DNA from: an uncultured Gammaproteobacteria bacterium
GTDB taxonomy: Bacteria > Pseudomonadota > Gammaproteobacteria > JAURND01
Direction: 5' to 3'
DNA length: 64,000 nucleotides
Assembly: GCA_963777715.1 (NCBI GenBank)
Contig: CAVZRN010000010.1
Span: forward strand, 86,211-150,210
Position numbers and translations under genes: made by a program
Shown here: piece after piece, positions 25,542 to 32,848 of the stretch
How the letters are laid out: each line of letters starts with the position of its first letter
How positions within the stretch are numbered: position 1 is the first letter of the stretch
The notes under the pieces: generated by a model
Seen by the model: the letters and a program-made list of their open reading frames with translations, nothing else
Told to the model about the DNA's origin: nothing
Database searches by the model: none

Positions 25542-26963
25542 GTGAGCATGCAACATGCTTATTTAGAAAGACTGAAAGCGCCTCGAAATGTATGGGTCAA
25601 TGGAAAGAAAATTGATTCCCTCCTTTCTGAGCCGTCATTCACTGGGGCAATAGAAAATATAGTTCAATACTATCATTTAATAGAAACTCCAGGCTTTCAT
25701 TTCGACTACCATGGCAGTAAAACTGCTATCAGTTTGTCCATACCCAAATCCATTGATGACCTTATCCAGAAAAGAAAGGCTTATAAAGCAATAGCAGATC
25801 TTTCTTTTGGAATGCTGGGAAGAACTCCTGATTTCATGAATGCAGGATTAAGTGCGATGAGGTCGCATGCTGATTTTTTCGGCAAAAACAATTTTGTAGA
25901 TTTTGAAGCAAATGTTATTGACTTTTATAACCGCTGTGCCGCTGAACATCTATTTGTCGGACACGGTGCTATTAATCCCCAGATTGATAGGTCAAAGCCG
26001 TTAGGAGAGCAAGGCAATATTTATGCAGGTGTTAAATGTTTGAACTCTGATAGTACTGGCATCACCGTTTCTGGAGCAAAAATGATAGTGACACTTGCTC
26101 CTATCGCGGATCAACTTTTGATATTTAATATGCCAGGGCTTGTTAACTCAGATGAAGATTTTGCCCTGGCCTTTGCCGTCCCGACGGATGCTGTTGGTTT
26201 AAAGATTATTTGTCGGAAACCCCTTGTGCATGATACGTACACTAACTTTGATTATCCATTATCGAGAAAAATTGACGAAATTGACGCATATCTTATATTT
26301 CAGGACGTTAAGATTCCTTGGGATAATGTATTTATTTTCAAAGATGTAGATAGGTCAAATAAATTTTATGATGTGACCTGTACCCGCCATCATACCGGCC
26401 ATCAAGGTATCGTAAGAGGTTTAGCCAAGGCAGAGTTGTTAATTGGTGTAGCTGACTCTCTGGCCCAAAATTTAGGACTGAGTAATTTCATAAATATACA
26501 AGAAAAACTTGGAGAGCTTACTACGGCTTTTGAGCTAATCAGGGGTGCTGTTATTTTATCTGAGGTTGAAGCACAAGTTGATGTCAACGGTGTTTGCAAT
26601 CCGAGCATTCATGCAATCCAAGCTATAAGATTTCATTTCCCGAAATGGTATCAGAAAATGCTGAGTACGATTCAATCGTTGGCTGCCGGATCAATGCTTG
26701 CGGTGCCACATGGGGATGACTTTCATAATGAAAATGAAGCATGCCTGGAACTGGCTTTACAGAACTCGCACTTGTCTCCGAGAGATAGAAGTCAGCTACT
26801 AAATTTGGCCTGGGACGTGACGGGTGATGGTTTTGGCCAGCGACAAATGGTCTACGAAAATTATCATGCTGGTGATCCAATGCGTATAGCAGCTAATCAT
26901 TATAAGAGCTACAACAAGTCTAGCATGGTTGCCTCTGTGAGTAGGGCGTTAAAAAATGATTAA
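25542..26963 (+). CDS. HpaB-family flavin-dependent monooxygenase (oxygenase component)
   Basis: 473 aa, colinear with E. coli HpaB. Shared segments are GRTPDF, NPQIDRS, SGAKM, DFALAFAVP, YPLSRKIDEIDA and IPWDNVF. Confidence 0.8.
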   Translation: MSMQHAYLERLKAPRNVWVNGKKIDSLLSEPSFTGAIENIVQYYHLIETPGFHFDYHGSKTAISLSIPKSIDDLIQKRKAYKAIADLSFGMLGRTPDFMNAGLSAMRSHADFFGKNNFVDFEANVIDFYNRCAAEHLFVGHGAINPQIDRSKPLGEQGNIYAGVKCLNSDSTGITVSGAKMIVTLAPIADQLLIFNMPGLVNSDEDFALAFAVPTDAVGLKIICRKPLVHDTYTNFDYPLSRKIDEIDAYLIFQDVKIPWDNVFIFKDVDRSNKFYDVTCTRHHTGHQGIVRGLAKAELLIGVADSLAQNLGLSNFINIQEKLGELTTAFELIRGAVILSEVEAQVDVNGVCNPSIHAIQAIRFHFPKWYQKMLSTIQSLAAGSMLAVPHGDDFHNENEACLELALQNSHLSPRDRSQLLNLAWDVTGDGFGQRQMVYENYHAGDPMRIAANHYKSYNKSSMVASVSRALKND

Positions 26964-27031
26964 ATGCTTATACCTGAGTACACTAACAGATGATAAAATA
27001 TTTCTAGTCCGAGCGCAAAATAATAAAGAGA

Positions 27032-28243
27032 GTGGGCATGATTTATAACATTAAGAGACTATTGGAGTCTTTAATATCAAATGACATCGATGTTCTCATA
27101 GCTTCAACAGCAGAAAACATAAATTACTTTACAGGGTTTCAACCCGTAATAAAAGTTTTGAACAGGTATCATGGTGAGTGTTATGTTGTTATTCATCGCG
27201 ATAATCCTAACGTTGTAAATTTAGTTCATTCTTGTGGTGAGTGCGACCAGATCACAGAATGCAGAAGCGATTTAGGTCTGGTTTATACTTACGGAACATT
27301 TTATCGAGAAGTTAAACCAGCGTATGAGCTGAAAGGAAACGAACTTGATATACACACCTGGACATCGAACAGTCCTCGCTACCTTTCTGCGCAGCACGCA
27401 CTGCACGAATTGTTAGGTGCGCTGGGCGTTAAAGGGGCTATGACGATTGGTTGTGATGAAGATGGCATGCCACATAGTACCCTCCAATCTTTAAAAGAAA
27501 AACATCACCAATGTAGAATTATTCCATGTTCATTGAAAATTAGAGATATTCGAAAAGTAAAAACACCTTATGAAATTGATATGCTGACCAAGGCGGCTAT
27601 TTGTAATGAAGCTGCGATTAAAACTGTTGCGAATTCAGTTTATGAGGGCATAACAGAACAAGAAATTCAAAATATCTTCGAATCAGCCATCGTCGATCAA
27701 GGTGGACGCCCTGAATTGACTATGATAAAAATTGGCAAGGAGGCAGTTGGTGGACAACGAAGGCAGCGGAATGATGTAGCTCTCACAACCAGCGATATCA
27801 TTTGGTTCGATTCAAATACCACTTATCAGGGATTTTGGGCAGATTTGGCCAGGGTTTGTGCTTTTCGAGATGTTAGTGATTCTGTGGCAAGAAAATATTC
27901 GGCCCTACAACTCGGTATGAGACATGCTGCAAAGACCATCAAGTCAGGAATGTCTGGGGCTCAAATTTTCGAGTCTGCGATGGAAGTTATTAAAAGTGCA
28001 GGCTTTAGTAATTACCGCAGACATCACATTGGTCATGGAATTGGTTTGGAGGCATATGAAAGACCTATCCTCTCCCCAAATGAAGCTATCTGTGTTGAAG
28101 ACGGCATGGTTATCTCCTTAGAAACACCTTATTACGAGTTTGGGTTCGGTGCGCTTCATCTCGAGGACCCGCTATTAGTAGGGGAGAAGGGTAATAGATT
28201 TCTGACGTTTAATCCCTGTCCAGATATTGAAGTGCTTGGCTAA
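27032..28243 (+). CDS. M24-family metallohydrolase (Xaa-Pro peptidase/creatinase-like)
   Basis: 403 aa. Has a creatinase-type N-domain and the pita-bread motif HHIGHGIGLEAYERP. The probable ATG is at 27038. Confidence 0.8.
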   Translation: MGMIYNIKRLLESLISNDIDVLIASTAENINYFTGFQPVIKVLNRYHGECYVVIHRDNPNVVNLVHSCGECDQITECRSDLGLVYTYGTFYREVKPAYELKGNELDIHTWTSNSPRYLSAQHALHELLGALGVKGAMTIGCDEDGMPHSTLQSLKEKHHQCRIIPCSLKIRDIRKVKTPYEIDMLTKAAICNEAAIKTVANSVYEGITEQEIQNIFESAIVDQGGRPELTMIKIGKEAVGGQRRQRNDVALTTSDIIWFDSNTTYQGFWADLARVCAFRDVSDSVARKYSALQLGMRHAAKTIKSGMSGAQIFESAMEVIKSAGFSNYRRHHIGHGIGLEAYERPILSPNEAICVEDGMVISLETPYYEFGFGALHLEDPLLVGEKGNRFLTFNPCPDIEVLG

Positions 28244-28254
28244 GGACTTGAAAA

Positions 28255-31119: not shown

Positions 31120-31167
31120 TCGCAATCAGGCTATCGACGTTGAAAGAATGAAACAGGATAAGTTAAG

Positions 31168-32367
31168 GTGCTAGCAGAACCCACAAACTCATCGATTCGT
31201 ATTTGGTTGACGGTGATTGTCCTTGGCGTTGCTGCATTTGCCATGGTGACGACCGAGTTCGCACCTATTGGGCTGCTATCCCAGATAGCATTCAATTTAG
31301 GGCGGGACCGCTCCACAATTGGGCTTACTGTGGCCATCTATGCCTGGATTGGTGCAGCCAGCGGTTTACTATCAGCTGTCCTGCACCATCGCTTTCCACG
31401 GAAGCCGTTGCTGGTTGCGTTGATGCTGGTTCTCGCTGTATCGAACGCTGCGGCGATGATTTCCCAGACATTCTCGGCGTTGTTGTTGGCACGGATATTG
31501 GGGGCCATCTCCCATGGGGTTTTCTGGGCAATGGTCGCCGCGTCTGCAACGCAGATTGCCCCACCCAATCGCATGGGTCTTGCGACAGCGATTGTATTTG
31601 GCGGGATATCGATCGCGACCGTAATGGGCGTGCCGCTCACGAATCTAATCGGGGAAGCAAACGGTTGGCGAGTGGCGTTTGGCGTACTCAGCGCGCTCTG
31701 TCTGTTGACCGCGTTGCTCATGATTGTCGTCATCCCTAAGATGAAGGTTAACGTAATGGCTAGTGGCTTCACGCTGAGGTGTGTGTTGCGCCGCCATGGC
31801 TTGCTTGTCATCTATTTGGTTACCGCCTTCACGGCAGCAGCGCATTTCGGAGCATACACATTCGTTGAACCCTTTATTGGGGAAATACCTGGCATTTCTC
31901 ACTTTATGATTGCAGTACTGTTGTTCGGTTTTGGAGCGGCGGGACTGCTCGGCAATATCCTGACTGCGCTGTTCATCGATCGTTTCATGAAACCGATTAT
32001 TGTGTTGGCGCTGCTTGCTCTGTGCTTGACACTTATTACCCTGGGACGGTTTGGACCCACATCTGGGACTGTATCAGTGCTTATTCTTCTTGTAATCTGG
32101 GGTGCTGCAATAGCAACGCTTTTTGCAGGCCTACAGACTTGGGTTTTACGGGTTGCTGGTTTAGCAACCATGGCTGCAGCGGCATTTCATACTGCGGTTC
32201 TCAACGCATCCATCGGTATCGGAGCCATGATTGGTGCCTGGAGTCTAAATATTTTCGGTTTGTCTGGAGCGATGTTATCCGCAGGCGTAGTTGTTATCCC
32301 CGCTCTCTTAATGATTTTATTGCAGGGGCCGTTAACTCAAAACCGTAACGTCTCCTTCAATCAATGA
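31168..32367 (+). CDS. MFS transporter (DHA1-like efflux type)
   Basis: 399 aa with ~12 predicted hydrophobic helices. The N-terminal motif is TTEFAPIGLLSQIA. The many overlapping ORF-track entries here are artefacts of high G+C. Confidence 0.85.
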   Translation: MLAEPTNSSIRIWLTVIVLGVAAFAMVTTEFAPIGLLSQIAFNLGRDRSTIGLTVAIYAWIGAASGLLSAVLHHRFPRKPLLVALMLVLAVSNAAAMISQTFSALLLARILGAISHGVFWAMVAASATQIAPPNRMGLATAIVFGGISIATVMGVPLTNLIGEANGWRVAFGVLSALCLLTALLMIVVIPKMKVNVMASGFTLRCVLRRHGLLVIYLVTAFTAAAHFGAYTFVEPFIGEIPGISHFMIAVLLFGFGAAGLLGNILTALFIDRFMKPIIVLALLALCLTLITLGRFGPTSGTVSVLILLVIWGAAIATLFAGLQTWVLRVAGLATMAAAAFHTAVLNASIGIGAMIGAWSLNIFGLSGAMLSAGVVVIPALLMILLQGPLTQNRNVSFNQ

Positions 32368-32428
32368 AGACTTATAGCTGGTGTTTCTGGCGATTCTTTG
32401 GAAATTAAACATAAAAATACATGCAAGC

Positions 32429-32848
32429 ATGCAACATAGTGAAGAGATTTGTGAAAATAGGTGGCAAATTAAATTAATAGCGCCAGGCGATCTTCGAGCT
32501 TCTGAGGAATGCAATTGGGATCGAGCCAAGGCCTTACGCGATAAAATACTACGCGATAATGTTTGGTCTGTCCCACTATTAGTTGAGGGAGTCAGAAAAA
32601 TCGTGATGGATGGACATCATAGGCTGCTAGTTGCTCAGATGTTAAATTTTAAATATGTGCCGTGTGTGCTGCTATCGTACGAAGACAAACGTGTTAGCGT
32701 TACATCATGGGCTGATTCATCACCCTTCGATTACAAAACTATTCTAAATGCGGGGGTGACAGGGCGGTTACTTCTTTATAAAACAACAAGGCATCACTTG
32801 TCAGAATATATACCCAGATGTGATATCCGATTGGACGATTTGAGATGA
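32429..32848 (+). CDS. ParB/sulfiredoxin-fold (ParB-like nuclease domain) small protein
   Basis: About 139 aa from the ATG at 32429. The motif is PLLVEGVRKIVMDGHHRLLVAQML. It is the last gene of the co-directional block. Confidence 0.65.
   Translation: MQHSEEICENRWQIKLIAPGDLRASEECNWDRAKALRDKILRDNVWSVPLLVEGVRKIVMDGHHRLLVAQMLNFKYVPCVLLSYEDKRVSVTSWADSSPFDYKTILNAGVTGRLLLYKTTRHHLSEYIPRCDIRLDDLR

What the first reader, a model, noticed from the sequence alone, without database searches (positions are those of the whole stretch)
25542..32848. Compact six-gene putative small-molecule biosynthesis/export locus of unknown product
Six co-directional, tightly spaced genes (gaps of roughly 70, 11, 3, 48 and 13-61 nt) encode the following. 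First, an HpaB-family flavin monooxygenase. Second, an M24 creatinase/prolidase-like hydrolase. Third, a PLP enzyme strongly resembling SbnA, the O-phosphoserine-dependent enzyme that starts L-2,3-diaminopropionate synthesis. Fourth, an AsnB-type amidotransferase/adenylating enzyme, the family that also makes amide or beta-lactam bonds in natural-product pathways. Fifth, an MFS efflux pump. Sixth, a ParB/Srx-fold protein. SbnA-like, AsnB-like and MFS genes also occur together in the dapdiamide-type Dap-derived antibiotic cluster. No SbnB-like dehydrogenase, NRPS or ATP-grasp ligase is present here, so I could not match the combination to a pathway I know. It may make a modified non-proteinogenic amino acid or amide.
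Basis: partly seen in the sequence, partly recalled or inferred. Interest (0 to 1): 0.7.

Follow-up and report, generated by a model that had tools for sequence, protein, structure and literature searches.

The report
Orphan phosphoserine-based metabolite gene cluster
Six co-transcribed genes form a real, horizontally shared operon that most likely builds and exports a small amide-bearing compound from phosphoserine; the product is unknown, and the same enzyme core recurs in Pseudomonas, Nocardia, Streptomyces, plant pathogens, Bacillus and cyanobacteria.

Summary
This is not chance adjacency. The set HpaB–M24–SbnA-like–AsnB–MFS recurs in Pseudomonas, and in shuffled order in Nocardia and Streptomyces. 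The M24/SbnA-like pair is adjacent in 45 of 80 species-level loci.

New findings:
- Gene 6 is a miniature free serine kinase. Its model (pLDDT 94) matches SerK and SbnI best (TM 0.73–0.84, against at most 0.48 for ParB/Srx). It probably supplies O-phosphoserine.
- The PLP enzyme keeps the phosphoserine-binding Arg of SbnA. Its obligate partner is an M24 metallohydrolase, not SbnB.
- The same PLP–M24 pair, with a different AsnS-like enzyme, is tln4–tln5–tln6 of the TLN-05220 cluster. There Tln5 joins phosphoserine to D-alanine, giving a pseudo-dipeptide that ends up in a piperazinone ring.
- AsnB keeps its catalytic Cys. Its closest solved relative is the hydroxyamidotransferase TsnB9 (45% identity).
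- Sister clusters replace AsnB/MFS with PyrD/PyrE-like, LOG and NUDIX genes.

Best model: serine is phosphorylated, coupled to an amino acid, processed by M24 (possibly ring closure), hydroxylated, amidated and exported. The product is unknown and I found no paper describing it. This is a new variant of a known kind. Interest 0.6.

The parts
25542..26963 (+). HpaB-family oxygenase component of a two-component flavin monooxygenase. The likely true start is ATG 25548.
   Evidence: It hits Pfam HpaB_N and HpaB. TIGR02309 scores 356 bits, below the cut-off of 480. The best solved relative is Thermus HpaB 2yyg at 292 bits. R100 and H142 are conserved, Y104 is F, and S197/T198 are M/P. Orthologues are 73% identical in Pseudomonas, 55-59% in Pectobacterium and Bacillus, and 38-41% in actinomycetes, always beside the M24-PLP pair. 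No flavin reductase gene is in the window.
27032..28243 (+). M24 (pita-bread) metallohydrolase of a distinct subfamily. It is the obligate neighbour of the PLP enzyme.
   Evidence: It hits Creatinase_N and Peptidase_M24. The best PDB relatives are Xaa-Pro dipeptidases, at no more than 103 bits. All five metal ligands (D260, D271, H335, E364, E378) are conserved across every cluster type. The subfamily signature is GHGIGxExY(E/D), with Tyr where M24B enzymes have His. It is adjacent to an SbnA-like gene in 45 of 80 loci. The homologue in a Micromonospora locus sits in the position of tln6 'metallopeptidase'.
28255..29262 (+). SbnA/Tln5-like PLP beta-replacement enzyme, predicted to depend on O-phosphoserine.
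   Evidence: It hits PALP. TIGR03945 SbnA_fam scores 295 bits against a cut-off of 350. The best PDB hit is SbnA 5d84 at 193 bits. K41 (the PLP lysine), the SGNLG loop, R126 (SbnA R132), Y146 (Y152) and S179 (S185) are conserved. The subfamily-specific 'GK' and 'TGGH' are shared with the Tln5-position enzymes. Only 11 nt separate it from M24 and 3 nt from AsnB.
29266..31119 (+). AsnB-type, glutamine-hydrolysing, ATP-dependent amidotransferase. Its closest solved relative is TsnB9.
   Evidence: It hits GATase_6/7 and Asn_synthase, and TIGR01536 scores 491 bits, above the cut-off of 267. The N-terminus is MCG, so the Cys nucleophile is present. The best PDB hit is 7ylz, the hydroxyamidotransferase TsnB9, at 564 bits and 45% identity. 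It is 81-82% identical to the Pseudomonas cluster AsnB and 49-50% to the Streptomyces and Nocardia cluster AsnB. Its GC3 is 0.54, against 0.35 for genes 1-3 and 6.
31168..32367 (+). MFS transporter whose closest curated families are efflux pumps; the presumed exporter.
   Evidence: It hits MFS_1. The nearest NCBIfam families are the sugar efflux transporter PRK03545 (259 bits), Cmx/CmrA chloramphenicol efflux and the NepI nucleoside efflux pump, all below cut-off. Orthologues are 58-59% identical in the Pseudomonas clusters and 32-35% in the actinomycete clusters.
32429..32848 (+). Miniature SerK/SbnI-like ParB-fold protein of 139 aa (the ORF opens at GTG 32381). It is the predicted free serine kinase that supplies O-phosphoserine.
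   Evidence: NCBIfam SerK gives E 3.5e-10. phmmer against the PDB hits SerK 5x0b and 1vk1 at both the DGHHR motif and the C-terminal KTTRH strand. The AF2 model has pLDDT 94.4. The top nine Foldseek hits are SerK (TM 0.71-0.84) and SbnI (0.73-0.77), while ParB/Srx reach at most 0.48. The family has about 800 representatives, with E26, D61, G62, H64, R65 and H122 invariant. Homologues sit next to PLP enzymes in four other contexts. A full-length SbnI homologue occupies the equivalent place in the B. cereus sister cluster.

Best explanation
The six genes form one horizontally acquired operon. It makes and exports a small polar specialised metabolite built on O-phospho-L-serine.

Proposed order of steps:
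1. The mini SerK/SbnI-like protein phosphorylates free L-serine. This is inferred from fold and context.
2. The SbnA/Tln5-like PLP enzyme eliminates phosphate and adds the amine of a second amino acid to the aminoacrylate. The product is an N-(2-amino-2-carboxyethyl)-amino acid, a 'pseudo-dipeptide'. This is inferred from conserved residues and from the assayed enzyme Tln5.
3. The M24 metallohydrolase, which stands where SbnB stands in Dap pathways, processes that adduct. The most likely reaction is interconversion of the open form and its six-membered lactam (oxopiperazine-carboxylate). This is inferred, and it is the weakest step.
4. HpaB, using a flavin reductase encoded elsewhere in the genome, hydroxylates an enol- or phenol-like ring position. 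This is inferred from the conserved Arg/His pair.
5. The Cys-type AsnB converts the remaining carboxylate into a carboxamide, or less likely a hydroxamate.
6. The MFS pump exports the product.

The product itself is not known.
For: Operon and synteny:
- Gaps between the six genes are 68, 11, 3, 48 and 61 nt.
- The same five enzyme/transporter genes plus a flavin reductase are syntenic in three Pseudomonas species (PLP 70-71%, HpaB 73-74%, M24 60-62%, AsnB 81-82%, MFS 58-59% identical).
- The same genes occur in a different order in Nocardia camponoti and Streptomyces ipomoeae, hygroscopicus and pathocidini.
- M24 and the SbnA-like gene are adjacent in 45 of 80 species-level loci.

Gene 6 as a serine kinase:
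- Foldseek ranks SerK and SbnI first.
- A full-length SbnI homologue (E 2e-34) sits upstream of HpaB in the B. cereus sister cluster.
- A mini-SerK lies inside the Photorhabdus sister operon.
- Three further mini-SerK homologues lie two genes from PLP enzymes.
- SbnI is documented as the phosphoserine supplier for SbnA (reference 52 in PMC12704722).

PLP enzyme: the PLP Lys, the phosphate-binding Arg, and the Tyr and Ser of SbnA are conserved.

Literature anchor: Tln5 condenses O-phosphoserine with D-Ala in vitro, and the product goes into a piperazinone. tln4 (AsnS-like), tln5 and tln6 (metallopeptidase) are consecutive genes (bioRxiv 10.1101/2025.10.30.685158). A Micromonospora locus found through the M24 search reproduces the tln1-tln6 order. 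Its tln6-position gene is Peptidase_M24 and is 36% identical to the window M24.

AsnB has the catalytic Cys and passes the TIGR01536 cut-off. The nearest curated MFS families are efflux pumps.
Against: - No enzyme here was assayed, and the nucleophile of the PLP enzyme is unknown.
- The role of the M24 enzyme is unassigned even in the TLN-05220 study. Ring closure by an M24 hydrolase has no precedent that I know of.
- The mini-SerK lacks the middle domain of SerK (residues about 113-213), so kinase activity is unproven. Most sister clusters have no such gene.
- The window lacks the flavin reductase found in the Pseudomonas, Nocardia and Pectobacterium clusters.
- HpaB and AsnB are not strictly coupled to the core. 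Type B clusters lack AsnB, and type D and E clusters lack HpaB.
- The SbnA, HpaB and SerK curated cut-offs are all missed.
Confidence: 0.6

Rival explanations
1. The HpaB-M24-PLP core builds an orotate-like N-heteroaromatic acid, for example a hydroxypyrazinone-carboxylate derived from the pseudo-dipeptide lactam. The window's AsnB turns it into a carboxamide nucleobase antimetabolite. In sister clusters the acid is phosphoribosylated, or the producer protects its own pyrimidine pathway. This is a more specific version of the best explanation.
For: - Twelve loci carry an OPRT-like gene. The Pectobacterium one passes the TIGR00336 pyrE cut-off (147 bits against 107).
- Nine loci carry a class-2 DHODH. 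The Pectobacterium one passes NF003645 (388 bits against 366).
- Ten loci carry LOG and 15 carry NUDIX, all beside the core.
- Nocardia L071 carries a different DHODH class, PyrK-like plus class-1B PyrD, with LOG and an HD phosphohydrolase in the same position. This is non-orthologous replacement of the same activity.
- AsnB and PRT appear as alternatives across architectures.
- HpaB keeps the Arg/His pair that binds a phenolic or enolic oxygen.
- A piperazinone is the documented fate of the related pseudo-dipeptide.
Against: - The chemistry is entirely inferred and no such natural product was found in the literature searches.
- The Pseudomonas clusters most like the window have no DHODH, PRT, LOG or NUDIX gene within 10 kb.
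- The window's pyrD, 2.3 kb upstream on the opposite strand, looks like an ordinary housekeeping gene.
- DHODH chemistry needs an acidic C-H next to a carbonyl, and the simple oxopiperazine lacks one.
- The extra PyrD/PyrE copies could reflect precursor supply rather than resistance.
Confidence: 0.2
2. AsnB works like TsnB9, transferring hydroxylamine from a glutamyl-hydroxamate donor. The product would then be a hydroxamic acid, either a small metallophore or a metalloenzyme inhibitor, and HpaB would supply the N-oxygenation.
For: - TsnB9 (7ylz) is by far the closest solved relative, at 564 bits against 141 for E. coli AsnB. It is as similar to the cluster AsnBs (45-53%) as the proteobacterial and actinobacterial cluster AsnBs are to each other (49-52%).
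- TsnB9 and SaHAT make hydroxamates from free acids plus glutamyl hydroxamate (PMC13418202; PMC11160463).
- A related SbnA-like enzyme (51% identical) sits in a nicotianamine-synthase-type cluster, which I read as metallophore-like.
Against: - The donor in known systems is made by the TsnB6/TsnB7 amidooxygenase pair. No comparable gene is in the operon or its flanks.
- HpaB keeps residues typical of phenol hydroxylation. It also occurs in type B clusters that have no AsnB.
- PDB coverage of this AsnB subfamily is a single entry, so 'closest solved' does not mean same function.
Confidence: 0.1
3. The M24 and SbnA-like enzymes together are an SbnB-independent route to L-2,3-diaminopropionate. 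The PLP enzyme would add a hydrolysable nitrogen donor and M24 would remove the carrier. The Dap would then be tailored, as in dapdiamide or staphyloferrin B.
For: - SbnA-type residues are conserved, and a serine kinase is present as in the sbn cluster.
- The M24-PLP pair can stand almost alone: in cyanobacteria it has only an N-methyltransferase as neighbour.
- A metallopeptidase also follows an SbnA-like gene in an unrelated cluster, L093.
Against: - There are no NIS synthetases, ATP-grasp or NRPS ligases to use Dap.
- Amide or ureido nitrogens are poor nucleophiles for aminoacrylate.
- The one characterised relative from an M24-linked cassette (Tln5) makes a stable secondary amine that is kept in the product.
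Confidence: 0.07
4. The genes are ordinary primary-metabolism or catabolic genes that merely sit together. Examples would be phosphoserine-dependent cysteine synthesis (SerK plus CysK-like, as in archaea), asparagine synthetase, a prolidase and an aromatic hydroxylase.
For: - Every protein belongs to a family with primary-metabolism members.
- More distant M24 homologues in Rhodopseudomonas and Anaerolineae sit with ABC uptake systems, luciferase-like monooxygenases and other PLP enzymes. That arrangement looks catabolic.
Against: - The same set is conserved across phyla with rearranged order.
- The PLP enzyme scores higher against SbnA (295 bits) than against CysK (202 bits) and carries SGNLG rather than SGNTG.
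- The transporter's nearest families are efflux pumps.
- The cluster's GC3 deviates from the window baseline in both directions.
- The closest homologues are in Pseudomonas although the host is not a Pseudomonas.
Confidence: 0.03

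Closest known systems
Tln4-Tln5-Tln6 cassette of the TLN-05220 (echinosporamicin-type) cluster, Micromonospora echinospora (bioRxiv 10.1101/2025.10.30.685158)
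   Same: An SbnA-like PLP enzyme lies directly beside a metallopeptidase and an asparagine-synthetase homologue. A syntenic Micromonospora locus shows the metallopeptidase to be Peptidase_M24, 36% identical to the window M24. Tln5 is shown in vitro to use O-phosphoserine plus an amino acid to make a pseudo-dipeptide. The PLP enzymes share the 'GK' and 'TGGH' features and are 44-45% identical to the window enzyme, judged from type C and D PLP enzymes including the Actinoplanes (L048) enzyme in the Tln5 position.
   Different: The Tln AsnS homologue has an N-terminal Ser (ligase type), whereas the window AsnB has Cys (amidotransferase type). The Tln cassette serves a type II polyketide and has alanine racemases and multicopper oxidases. 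The window operon stands alone and has HpaB, MFS and a serine kinase instead. Tln5 and Tln6 sequences were not compared directly.
SbnA / SbnB / SbnI module of staphyloferrin B biosynthesis (Staphylococcus aureus)
   Same: Both have a PLP enzyme dependent on O-phosphoserine, with the same PLP Lys, phosphate-binding Arg132, Tyr152 and Ser185. Both have a dedicated ParB-fold free serine kinase encoded alongside.
   Different: There is no SbnB dehydrogenase and no NIS synthetases. The kinase is a 139-aa one-domain version rather than about 250 aa. The PLP enzyme is only 36% identical to SbnA and scores below the TIGR03945 cut-off. An M24 hydrolase is the fixed partner instead.
TsnB9 / SaHAT hydroxyamidotransferases (trichostatin A, benzohydroxamic acid)
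   Same: It is the closest solved structure to the window AsnB (45% identity over the full length). Both have an N-terminal Cys and perform ATP-dependent activation of a free carboxylic acid (PMC13418202).
   Different: The window has no TsnB6/TsnB7 amidooxygenase to make the hydroxylamine donor. The acceptor is unknown. Plain glutamine-dependent amidation is the simpler expectation.
Dapdiamide (dda) cluster of Pantoea agglomerans
   Same: Both combine an SbnA-like enzyme, an AsnB-type amidotransferase acting on a pathway intermediate, and an efflux pump.
   Different: The dda cluster has an SbnB-like partner and ATP-dependent ligases, and it has no M24, HpaB or serine kinase. None of those ligases is present here.
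HpaB/HpaC two-component 4-hydroxyphenylacetate 3-hydroxylase
   Same: Gene 1 has the same fold and is about 292 bits from Thermus HpaB. It keeps the Arg100/His142 pair, and a flavin reductase partner is present in the orthologous clusters.
   Different: The carboxylate-binding Ser197/Thr198 and Tyr104 are replaced. The score is below the HpaB equivalog cut-off. No reductase gene is in the window.

Membership tests
SbnA (ACEGA synthase, TIGR03945) | Score at or above the curated NCBIfam cut-off | tested here: not met
   It scores 295.1 bits against a cut-off of 349.95. It is still the best-scoring family, ahead of CBS at 209 bits and CysK at 202 bits.
SbnA (ACEGA synthase, TIGR03945) | PLP lysine, phosphoserine-binding Arg132, Tyr152 and Ser185 | tested here: met
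   K41, R126, Y146 and S179 align with SbnA K47, R132, Y152 and S185. They are also conserved in the sister-cluster enzymes. The roles of these residues are recalled from the SbnA structural literature, not read here.
SbnA (ACEGA synthase, TIGR03945) | Paired with an SbnB-type NAD-dependent dehydrogenase that releases Dap | tested here: not met
   No such gene is in the operon or its flanks. None is in the Pseudomonas, Pectobacterium or Moorena loci. None was found among the 38 of 52 window ORFs of at least 150 aa that were scanned.
Tln5-type pseudo-dipeptide synthase cassette | SbnA-like PLP enzyme adjacent to an M24 metallopeptidase | tested here: met
   The window genes are 11 nt apart. The pair is adjacent in 45 of 80 loci. 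The Micromonospora locus that reproduces tln1-tln6 has Peptidase_M24 in the tln6 position.
Tln5-type pseudo-dipeptide synthase cassette | Asparagine-synthetase homologue of the ligase type (N-terminal Ser), within a type II PKS cluster | tested here: not met
   The window AsnB starts MCG, whereas the type D homologues start MSG. No PKS genes were found among the window ORFs scanned.
Tln5-type pseudo-dipeptide synthase cassette | O-phosphoserine plus amino acid gives an N-(2-amino-2-carboxyethyl)-amino acid | not testable with these tools
   This needs an enzyme assay. It has been shown only for Tln5.
Free serine kinase (SerK / SbnI) | ParB-like fold closest to SerK and SbnI rather than to ParB or Srx | tested here: met
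   The AF2 model has pLDDT 94.4. Foldseek ranks 1-9 are all SerK or SbnI, with TM (query-normalised) 0.71-0.84, while ParB and Srx reach at most 0.48.
Free serine kinase (SerK / SbnI) | Two-domain architecture of about 240-250 aa, and the curated SerK cut-off | tested here: not met
   The protein is 139 aa. Target-normalised TM is only 0.41-0.50, and the segment matching SerK 113-213 is absent. NCBIfam SerK scores 39.4 bits against a cut-off of 380.
Free serine kinase (SerK / SbnI) | Conserved catalytic motifs (the Glu mutated in the SerK E30A/E30Q crystal structures, and DGHHR) | tested here: inconclusive
   DGHHR aligns with SerK residues 69-73. E26, D61, G62, H64, R65 and H122 are invariant in 62 family members. 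The equivalence of E26 to SerK E30 is inferred from profile offsets only.
Class II glutamine amidotransferase / asparagine synthetase B family | TIGR01536 cut-off and N-terminal Cys nucleophile | tested here: met
   It scores 491.4 bits against a cut-off of 267.1. The N-terminus is MCGIAGW.
TsnB9-type hydroxyamidotransferase | Encoded with an amidooxygenase (TsnB6/TsnB7) that makes glutamyl-gamma-hydroxamate | tested here: not met
   None of the six genes or their flanks has a comparable annotation. No TsnB7 sequence was available for a direct search.
HpaB 4-hydroxyphenylacetate 3-hydroxylase (TIGR02309) | Curated cut-off and 4-HPA-binding residues | tested here: not met
   It scores 355.8 bits against a cut-off of 480.2. 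R100 and H142 are kept, but Y104 is F and S197/T198 are M/P. The residue roles are recalled from the Thermus HpaB literature.
M24B Xaa-Pro dipeptidase (prolidase) | Five metal ligands | tested here: met
   D260, D271, H335, E364 and E378 are invariant in all 12 aligned homologues.
M24B Xaa-Pro dipeptidase (prolidase) | Curated equivalog score and the conserved His of the G-x-x-x-H-E signature | tested here: not met
   The best NCBIfam hits are 97-118 bits against cut-offs of 487-850. That position is Tyr throughout the subfamily. The M24B signature is recalled from memory.

The most novel reading that the evidence does not exclude
The HpaB-M24-SbnA-like core is a previously unrecognised, NRPS-independent route from serine plus a second amino acid to a hydroxylated pyrazinone/piperazinone carboxylic acid that resembles orotate. 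The window's variant would amidate it into a hydroxypyrazine-carboxamide-type nucleobase antimetabolite, chemically akin to the synthetic antiviral scaffold T-1105/favipiravir. The Pectobacterium, Bacillus and Nocardia variants would phosphoribosylate it or protect pyrimidine synthesis with extra DHODH, OPRT, LOG and NUDIX genes.
Probability: 0.12. Interest if true: 0.85.

Novelty: new variant of a known kind. Interest (0 to 1): 0.6.

Why it matters
O-phosphoserine-dependent SbnA-type enzymes are an emerging way to form C-N bonds without NRPS machinery. Examples are Dap, aspergillomarasmine and, most recently, the TLN-05220 piperazinone. This locus matters for four reasons.

- It shows that such an enzyme has a fixed M24 metallohydrolase partner, conserved from cyanobacteria to actinomycetes. 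That partner's role is unassigned even in the one studied cluster.
- It defines a compact, stand-alone version of five or six genes whose product is unknown. That size suits heterologous expression well.
- It reveals a family of about 800 one-domain SerK/SbnI-like proteins that repeatedly accompany PLP enzymes. This would extend 'free serine kinase' well beyond archaea and staphylococci.
- The recurrent link to DHODH, OPRT, LOG and NUDIX genes suggests bioactivity against nucleotide metabolism.

None of this is proven, but each point can be tested directly with a handful of purified enzymes.

Tried and rejected
- **Literature.** Full-text searches found nothing for SbnA+creatinase, SbnA+HpaB, phosphoserine/M24/asparagine synthetase combinations, SbnA+M24+amidotransferase combinations, or DHODH/OPRT self-resistance. 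Only the last search surfaced the TLN-05220 preprint.
- **Riboswitch or leader as a clue to the ligand.** Rfam found nothing at gathering threshold in seven sister loci. It found nothing at E≤1 in window 22000-35000, and only noise upstream of the Bacillus cluster.
- **HpaB as 4-hydroxybutyryl-CoA dehydratase linked to the upstream acyl-CoA dehydrogenase and thiolase.** Rejected. The vinylacetyl-CoA isomerase 6vjr scores 82 bits against 292 for true HpaB. The two upstream genes are not conserved with the cluster.
- **HpaB as the N-oxygenase feeding a TsnB9-like AsnB.** Judged unlikely. HpaB occurs without AsnB in type B clusters and keeps phenol-binding residues, and the known donors are made by the TsnB6/TsnB7 amidooxygenase pair.
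- **Cysteine synthesis by SerK plus a phosphoserine sulfhydrylase.** Judged unlikely because of the SbnA-type residues and the conserved non-sulfur neighbours.
- **The window's pyrD as a cluster resistance gene.** Not supported. It passes the housekeeping equivalog cut-off, is only 40% identical to the Pectobacterium cluster copy, and the Pseudomonas clusters have none nearby.
- **Word-indexed homologue search with gene 6.** It found only itself. The exhaustive HMMER search was needed.
- **Organism identity.** Not resolved. The best named PyrD hits are only 62-63% identical, from Nitrosomonadales and Sideroxydans. The window's own genome is absent from the species-representative collection. 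An exact look-up of the AsnB product failed.

Full report
**Observation**

The window carries six ORFs on the + strand at exactly the reported coordinates. The gaps are 68, 11, 3, 48 and 13 or 61 nt. Pfam and NCBIfam confirm the families:
- HpaB_N and HpaB
- Creatinase_N and Peptidase_M24
- PALP, with SbnA family as the best hit at 295 bits (cut-off 350)
- GATase_6/7 and Asn_synthase, with TIGR01536 at 491 bits (cut-off 267)
- MFS_1
- a small protein with no Pfam domain but a weak SerK (ParB-fold) hit

Gene 6 most likely starts at ATG 32429, giving 139 aa. That is the form held in the public collection.

The upstream acyl-CoA dehydrogenase and thiolase genes (23106-25489) are co-directional, but they are not found with the cluster anywhere else. 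Flanking genes are housekeeping: pyrD, epmC and mutY upstream, and an outer-membrane protein and a recF-like gene downstream.

**Is it a real unit?**

Yes. The closest relatives of the PLP enzyme are in Pseudomonas, at 70-72% identity. In P. chlororaphis, P. spelaei and P. orientalis the order is HpaB–M24–PLP–flavin reductase–AsnB–MFS. Identities to the window are 73-74% for HpaB, 60-62% for M24, 70-71% for the PLP enzyme, 81-82% for AsnB and 58-59% for MFS.

I scanned one genome per species (185,579 species) with an M24 alignment and obtained 80 loci. I then mapped the other proteins onto those loci by tblastn.
- M24 and the SbnA-like gene are adjacent on the same strand in 45 of the 80 loci.
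- HpaB is present in 24.
- The full HpaB+AsnB+MFS set is present in 7: the two Pseudomonas representatives from the scan (P. chlororaphis had come), Nocardia camponoti, Streptomyces ipomoeae, S. hygroscopicus, S. pathocidini and one more Streptomyces. In the actinomycetes the gene order and orientation differ.

Conservation of content under rearrangement across two phyla is strong evidence of functional coupling.

**Cluster family**

Around the invariant M24–PLP pair I distinguish five architectures.
- **Type A/C**, which includes the window: the pair with HpaB, a Cys-type AsnB and MFS.
- **Type B**: Pectobacterium, Photorhabdus, Bacillus, Paenibacillus, one P. fluorescens and a Rickettsiales MAG. 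The order is Fre-like reductase–HpaB–NUDIX–M24–PLP–PyrD-like–PyrE-like–DMT–LOG.
- **A Nocardia variant (L071)**: MFS–M24–PLP–HpaB–PyrK-like–class 1B PyrD–LOG–HD.
- **Type D**: many actinomycetes, with a Ser-type AsnS homologue, the PLP enzyme and M24.
- **Type E**: cyanobacteria, with a sarcosine/dimethylglycine-type N-methyltransferase, M24 and the PLP enzyme only.

More distant M24 homologues in Rhodopseudomonas and Anaerolineae still sit with a flavin monooxygenase (luciferase-like) and another PLP enzyme.

**Gene 6**

It can now be placed more precisely.
- It matches archaeal free serine kinase SerK at both the DGHHR motif and the C-terminal KTTRH strand.
- An AlphaFold2 model built on 62 homologues has pLDDT 94.4.
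- The nine best Foldseek matches in the PDB are all SerK (TM 0.71-0.84) or SbnI (0.73-0.77). ParB, Noc and sulfiredoxin reach at most 0.48.
- It is a one-domain 'mini' version that lacks SerK residues of about 113-213.
- An exhaustive HMMER search found 792 cluster representatives, mostly 130-170 aa. E26, D61, G62, H64, R65 and H122 are invariant.
- Some members are fused to MobA-like nucleotidyltransferases, which I read as fitting a small-molecule kinase.

Context links the family to PLP enzymes repeatedly.
- A 39% identical copy lies inside the Photorhabdus type B operon.
- Three other homologues sit in a desaturase–miniSerK–decarboxylase–PLP operon.
- In the Bacillus cereus type B cluster, the gene just upstream of HpaB is a full-length SbnI homologue, with E 2e-34 to 6nr6.

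SbnI is the documented phosphoserine supplier for SbnA (cited in PMC12704722). I therefore assign gene 6 as the phosphoserine-supplying kinase. The activity itself is untested.

**The PLP enzyme and its partner**

The window enzyme keeps the PLP lysine, the SGNLG loop, and the equivalents of SbnA Arg132, Tyr152 and Ser185. From my own knowledge of the SbnA literature, Arg132 is the phosphate binder.

It is only 36% identical to SbnA. It also carries subfamily-specific 'GK' and 'TGGH' motifs, which all M24-linked enzymes share.

There is no SbnB. Instead there is an M24 enzyme with all five metal ligands intact. It has Tyr at the position where, from memory, M24B peptidases have His, and this holds across all architectures.

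The decisive lead came from the literature (bioRxiv 10.1101/2025.10.30.685158). In Micromonospora echinospora, Tln5 is an SbnA-like enzyme that condenses O-phosphoserine with D-alanine in vitro. [quoted passage not shown] The neighbouring genes are tln4 (an AsnS-like ligase with N-terminal Ser) and tln6 ('metallopeptidase', with no role assigned).

A Micromonospora locus from my M24 scan reproduces the order: PLP racemase, small ORF, multicopper oxidase, SchA/CurD, AsnS, PLP enzyme, M24. Its tln6-position gene is Peptidase_M24. My type D is therefore this cassette. The window's M24–PLP pair is its homologue, at 36% identity for M24 (against that locus) and 44-45% for the PLP enzyme (against type C and D enzymes, including the Actinoplanes enzyme in the Tln5 position).

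**AsnB and HpaB**

The window AsnB begins MCG, so its glutaminase nucleophile is present. The type D homologues begin MSG, which marks the ligase type.

Its closest solved relative by far is TsnB9, the trichostatin hydroxyamidotransferase (564 bits, 45% identity). That enzyme needs glutamyl hydroxamate made by the TsnB6/TsnB7 amidooxygenase pair. Nothing comparable is encoded here, so a plain carboxamide is the default expectation and a hydroxamate is the alternative.

HpaB is 292 bits from Thermus HpaB. It keeps Arg100 and His142 but not Tyr104, Ser197 or Thr198. This points to a hydroxy-aromatic or enolic substrate other than 4-hydroxyphenylacetate. No reductase gene is in the window.

**Model**

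1. Serine is phosphorylated by the mini-SerK.
2. The PLP enzyme couples it to an amino acid, giving an N-(2-amino-2-carboxyethyl)-amino acid.
3. M24 processes this adduct. I favour interconversion with the six-membered lactam, given that the related adduct ends up in a piperazinone.
4. HpaB hydroxylates the ring.
5. AsnB amidates the free carboxylate.
6. MFS exports the product.

Steps 1, 2, 5 and 6 rest on family, residue and context evidence. Steps 3 and 4 are inference.

The recurrent DHODH genes (two non-homologous classes), together with OPRT, LOG, NUDIX and HD genes in sister clusters, suggest that the common intermediate is an orotate-like heterocyclic acid, or that the product targets pyrimidine metabolism. 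I treat this as the most interesting reading that the evidence does not exclude, not as shown.

**Origin**

The host is an uncultured proteobacterium.
- It encodes a Legionella-type outer-membrane protein, type IV secretion genes and a eukaryotic-like kinase.
- Its PyrD has no named relative above 63% identity.

Baseline GC3 in the window is 0.43 ± 0.05. HpaB, M24, the PLP enzyme and the mini-SerK are at 0.35-0.36, while AsnB and MFS are at 0.54. AsnB is also the protein most similar to Pseudomonas. The operon therefore looks like a mosaic of two acquisitions.

**Verdict**

The locus is an uncharacterised, phylogenetically widespread variant of phosphoserine-dependent, NRPS-independent amino-acid chemistry. 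Its product is unknown.

Noticed in passing
L006:7806-11008 (Moorena; also L039 and L055): Marine cyanobacteria carry only three of these genes in a row: a sarcosine/dimethylglycine-type N-methyltransferase (294 bits, below cut-off), M24 and the SbnA-like enzyme. An N-methylated serine-derived diamino acid is a conceivable product. BMAA biosynthesis is still hypothetical and has been proposed to use a cysteine-synthase-like enzyme plus a methyltransferase (PMC9414260).
   Followed up: partly
L090:7001-10796 (also L088, L091, L092): The closest homologues of the mini-SerK sit in a conserved four-gene operon: fatty-acid-desaturase-like gene, mini-SerK, Orn/DAP/Arg-type PLP decarboxylase, then a PALP enzyme only 29% identical to the window PLP enzyme. 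This is a second uncharacterised context that probably depends on phosphoserine.
   Followed up: partly
window 29266-32367 versus 25542-29262 and 32429-32848: There is a sharp compositional step inside one operon. GC3 is 0.54 for AsnB and MFS but 0.35-0.36 for the other four genes, against a window baseline of 0.43 ± 0.05. AsnB is also far more similar to Pseudomonas (81-82%) than its neighbours are. This suggests a mosaic origin.
   Followed up: partly
window 22036-23091 (- strand): A quinone-dependent dihydroorotate dehydrogenase gene (pyrD) lies 2.3 kb upstream of the operon, divergently oriented. DHODH genes are integral to many sister clusters. This copy looks like the ordinary housekeeping gene, and the Pseudomonas clusters have none nearby, so the proximity may be coincidence.
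   Followed up: partly
window 5475-15523 (- strand): A type IV secretion or conjugation gene set lies here: VirB4/TrbE-like (13070-15523), TrbL/VirB6-like (10465-11814), TrbI/VirB10-like (7686-8873) and a VirB11-type ATPase (6716-7684). It sits about 10 kb upstream of the cluster, with the housekeeping genes epmC and mutY in between.
   Followed up: no
window 59857-61179 (- strand) and 46995-51596 (+ strand): There is a eukaryotic-type Ser/Thr protein kinase (Pkinase, E 5e-29). There is also a 1533-aa ORF with no Pfam match at all. Both are features typical of intracellular bacteria with secreted effectors.
   Followed up: no
window 32901-32917 and 32925-32941: A 17-nt direct repeat, GGACATT(T/A)CTAAATTGC, occurs twice, 7 nt apart. 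It lies in the 206-nt gap between gene 6 and the outer-membrane protein gene. None is expected by chance (0 of 100 shuffles), so it may be a regulator binding site.
   Followed up: no
L093:5505-9888: An SbnA-like enzyme 51% identical to the window's lies between a nicotianamine-synthase-like gene and an M28/M20 metallopeptidase. The surrounding metagenomic cluster also has a radical SAM enzyme, a haem-oxygenase-like enzyme and an ATP-grasp enzyme. This is another case of an SbnA-like gene followed by a metallopeptidase.
   Followed up: no
window 20082-21764 (- strand): This gene encodes a predicted AAA-ATPase fused to a PD-(D/E)XK nuclease domain (PF09820 and PF08011). It lies between the T4SS region and pyrD.
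   Followed up: no
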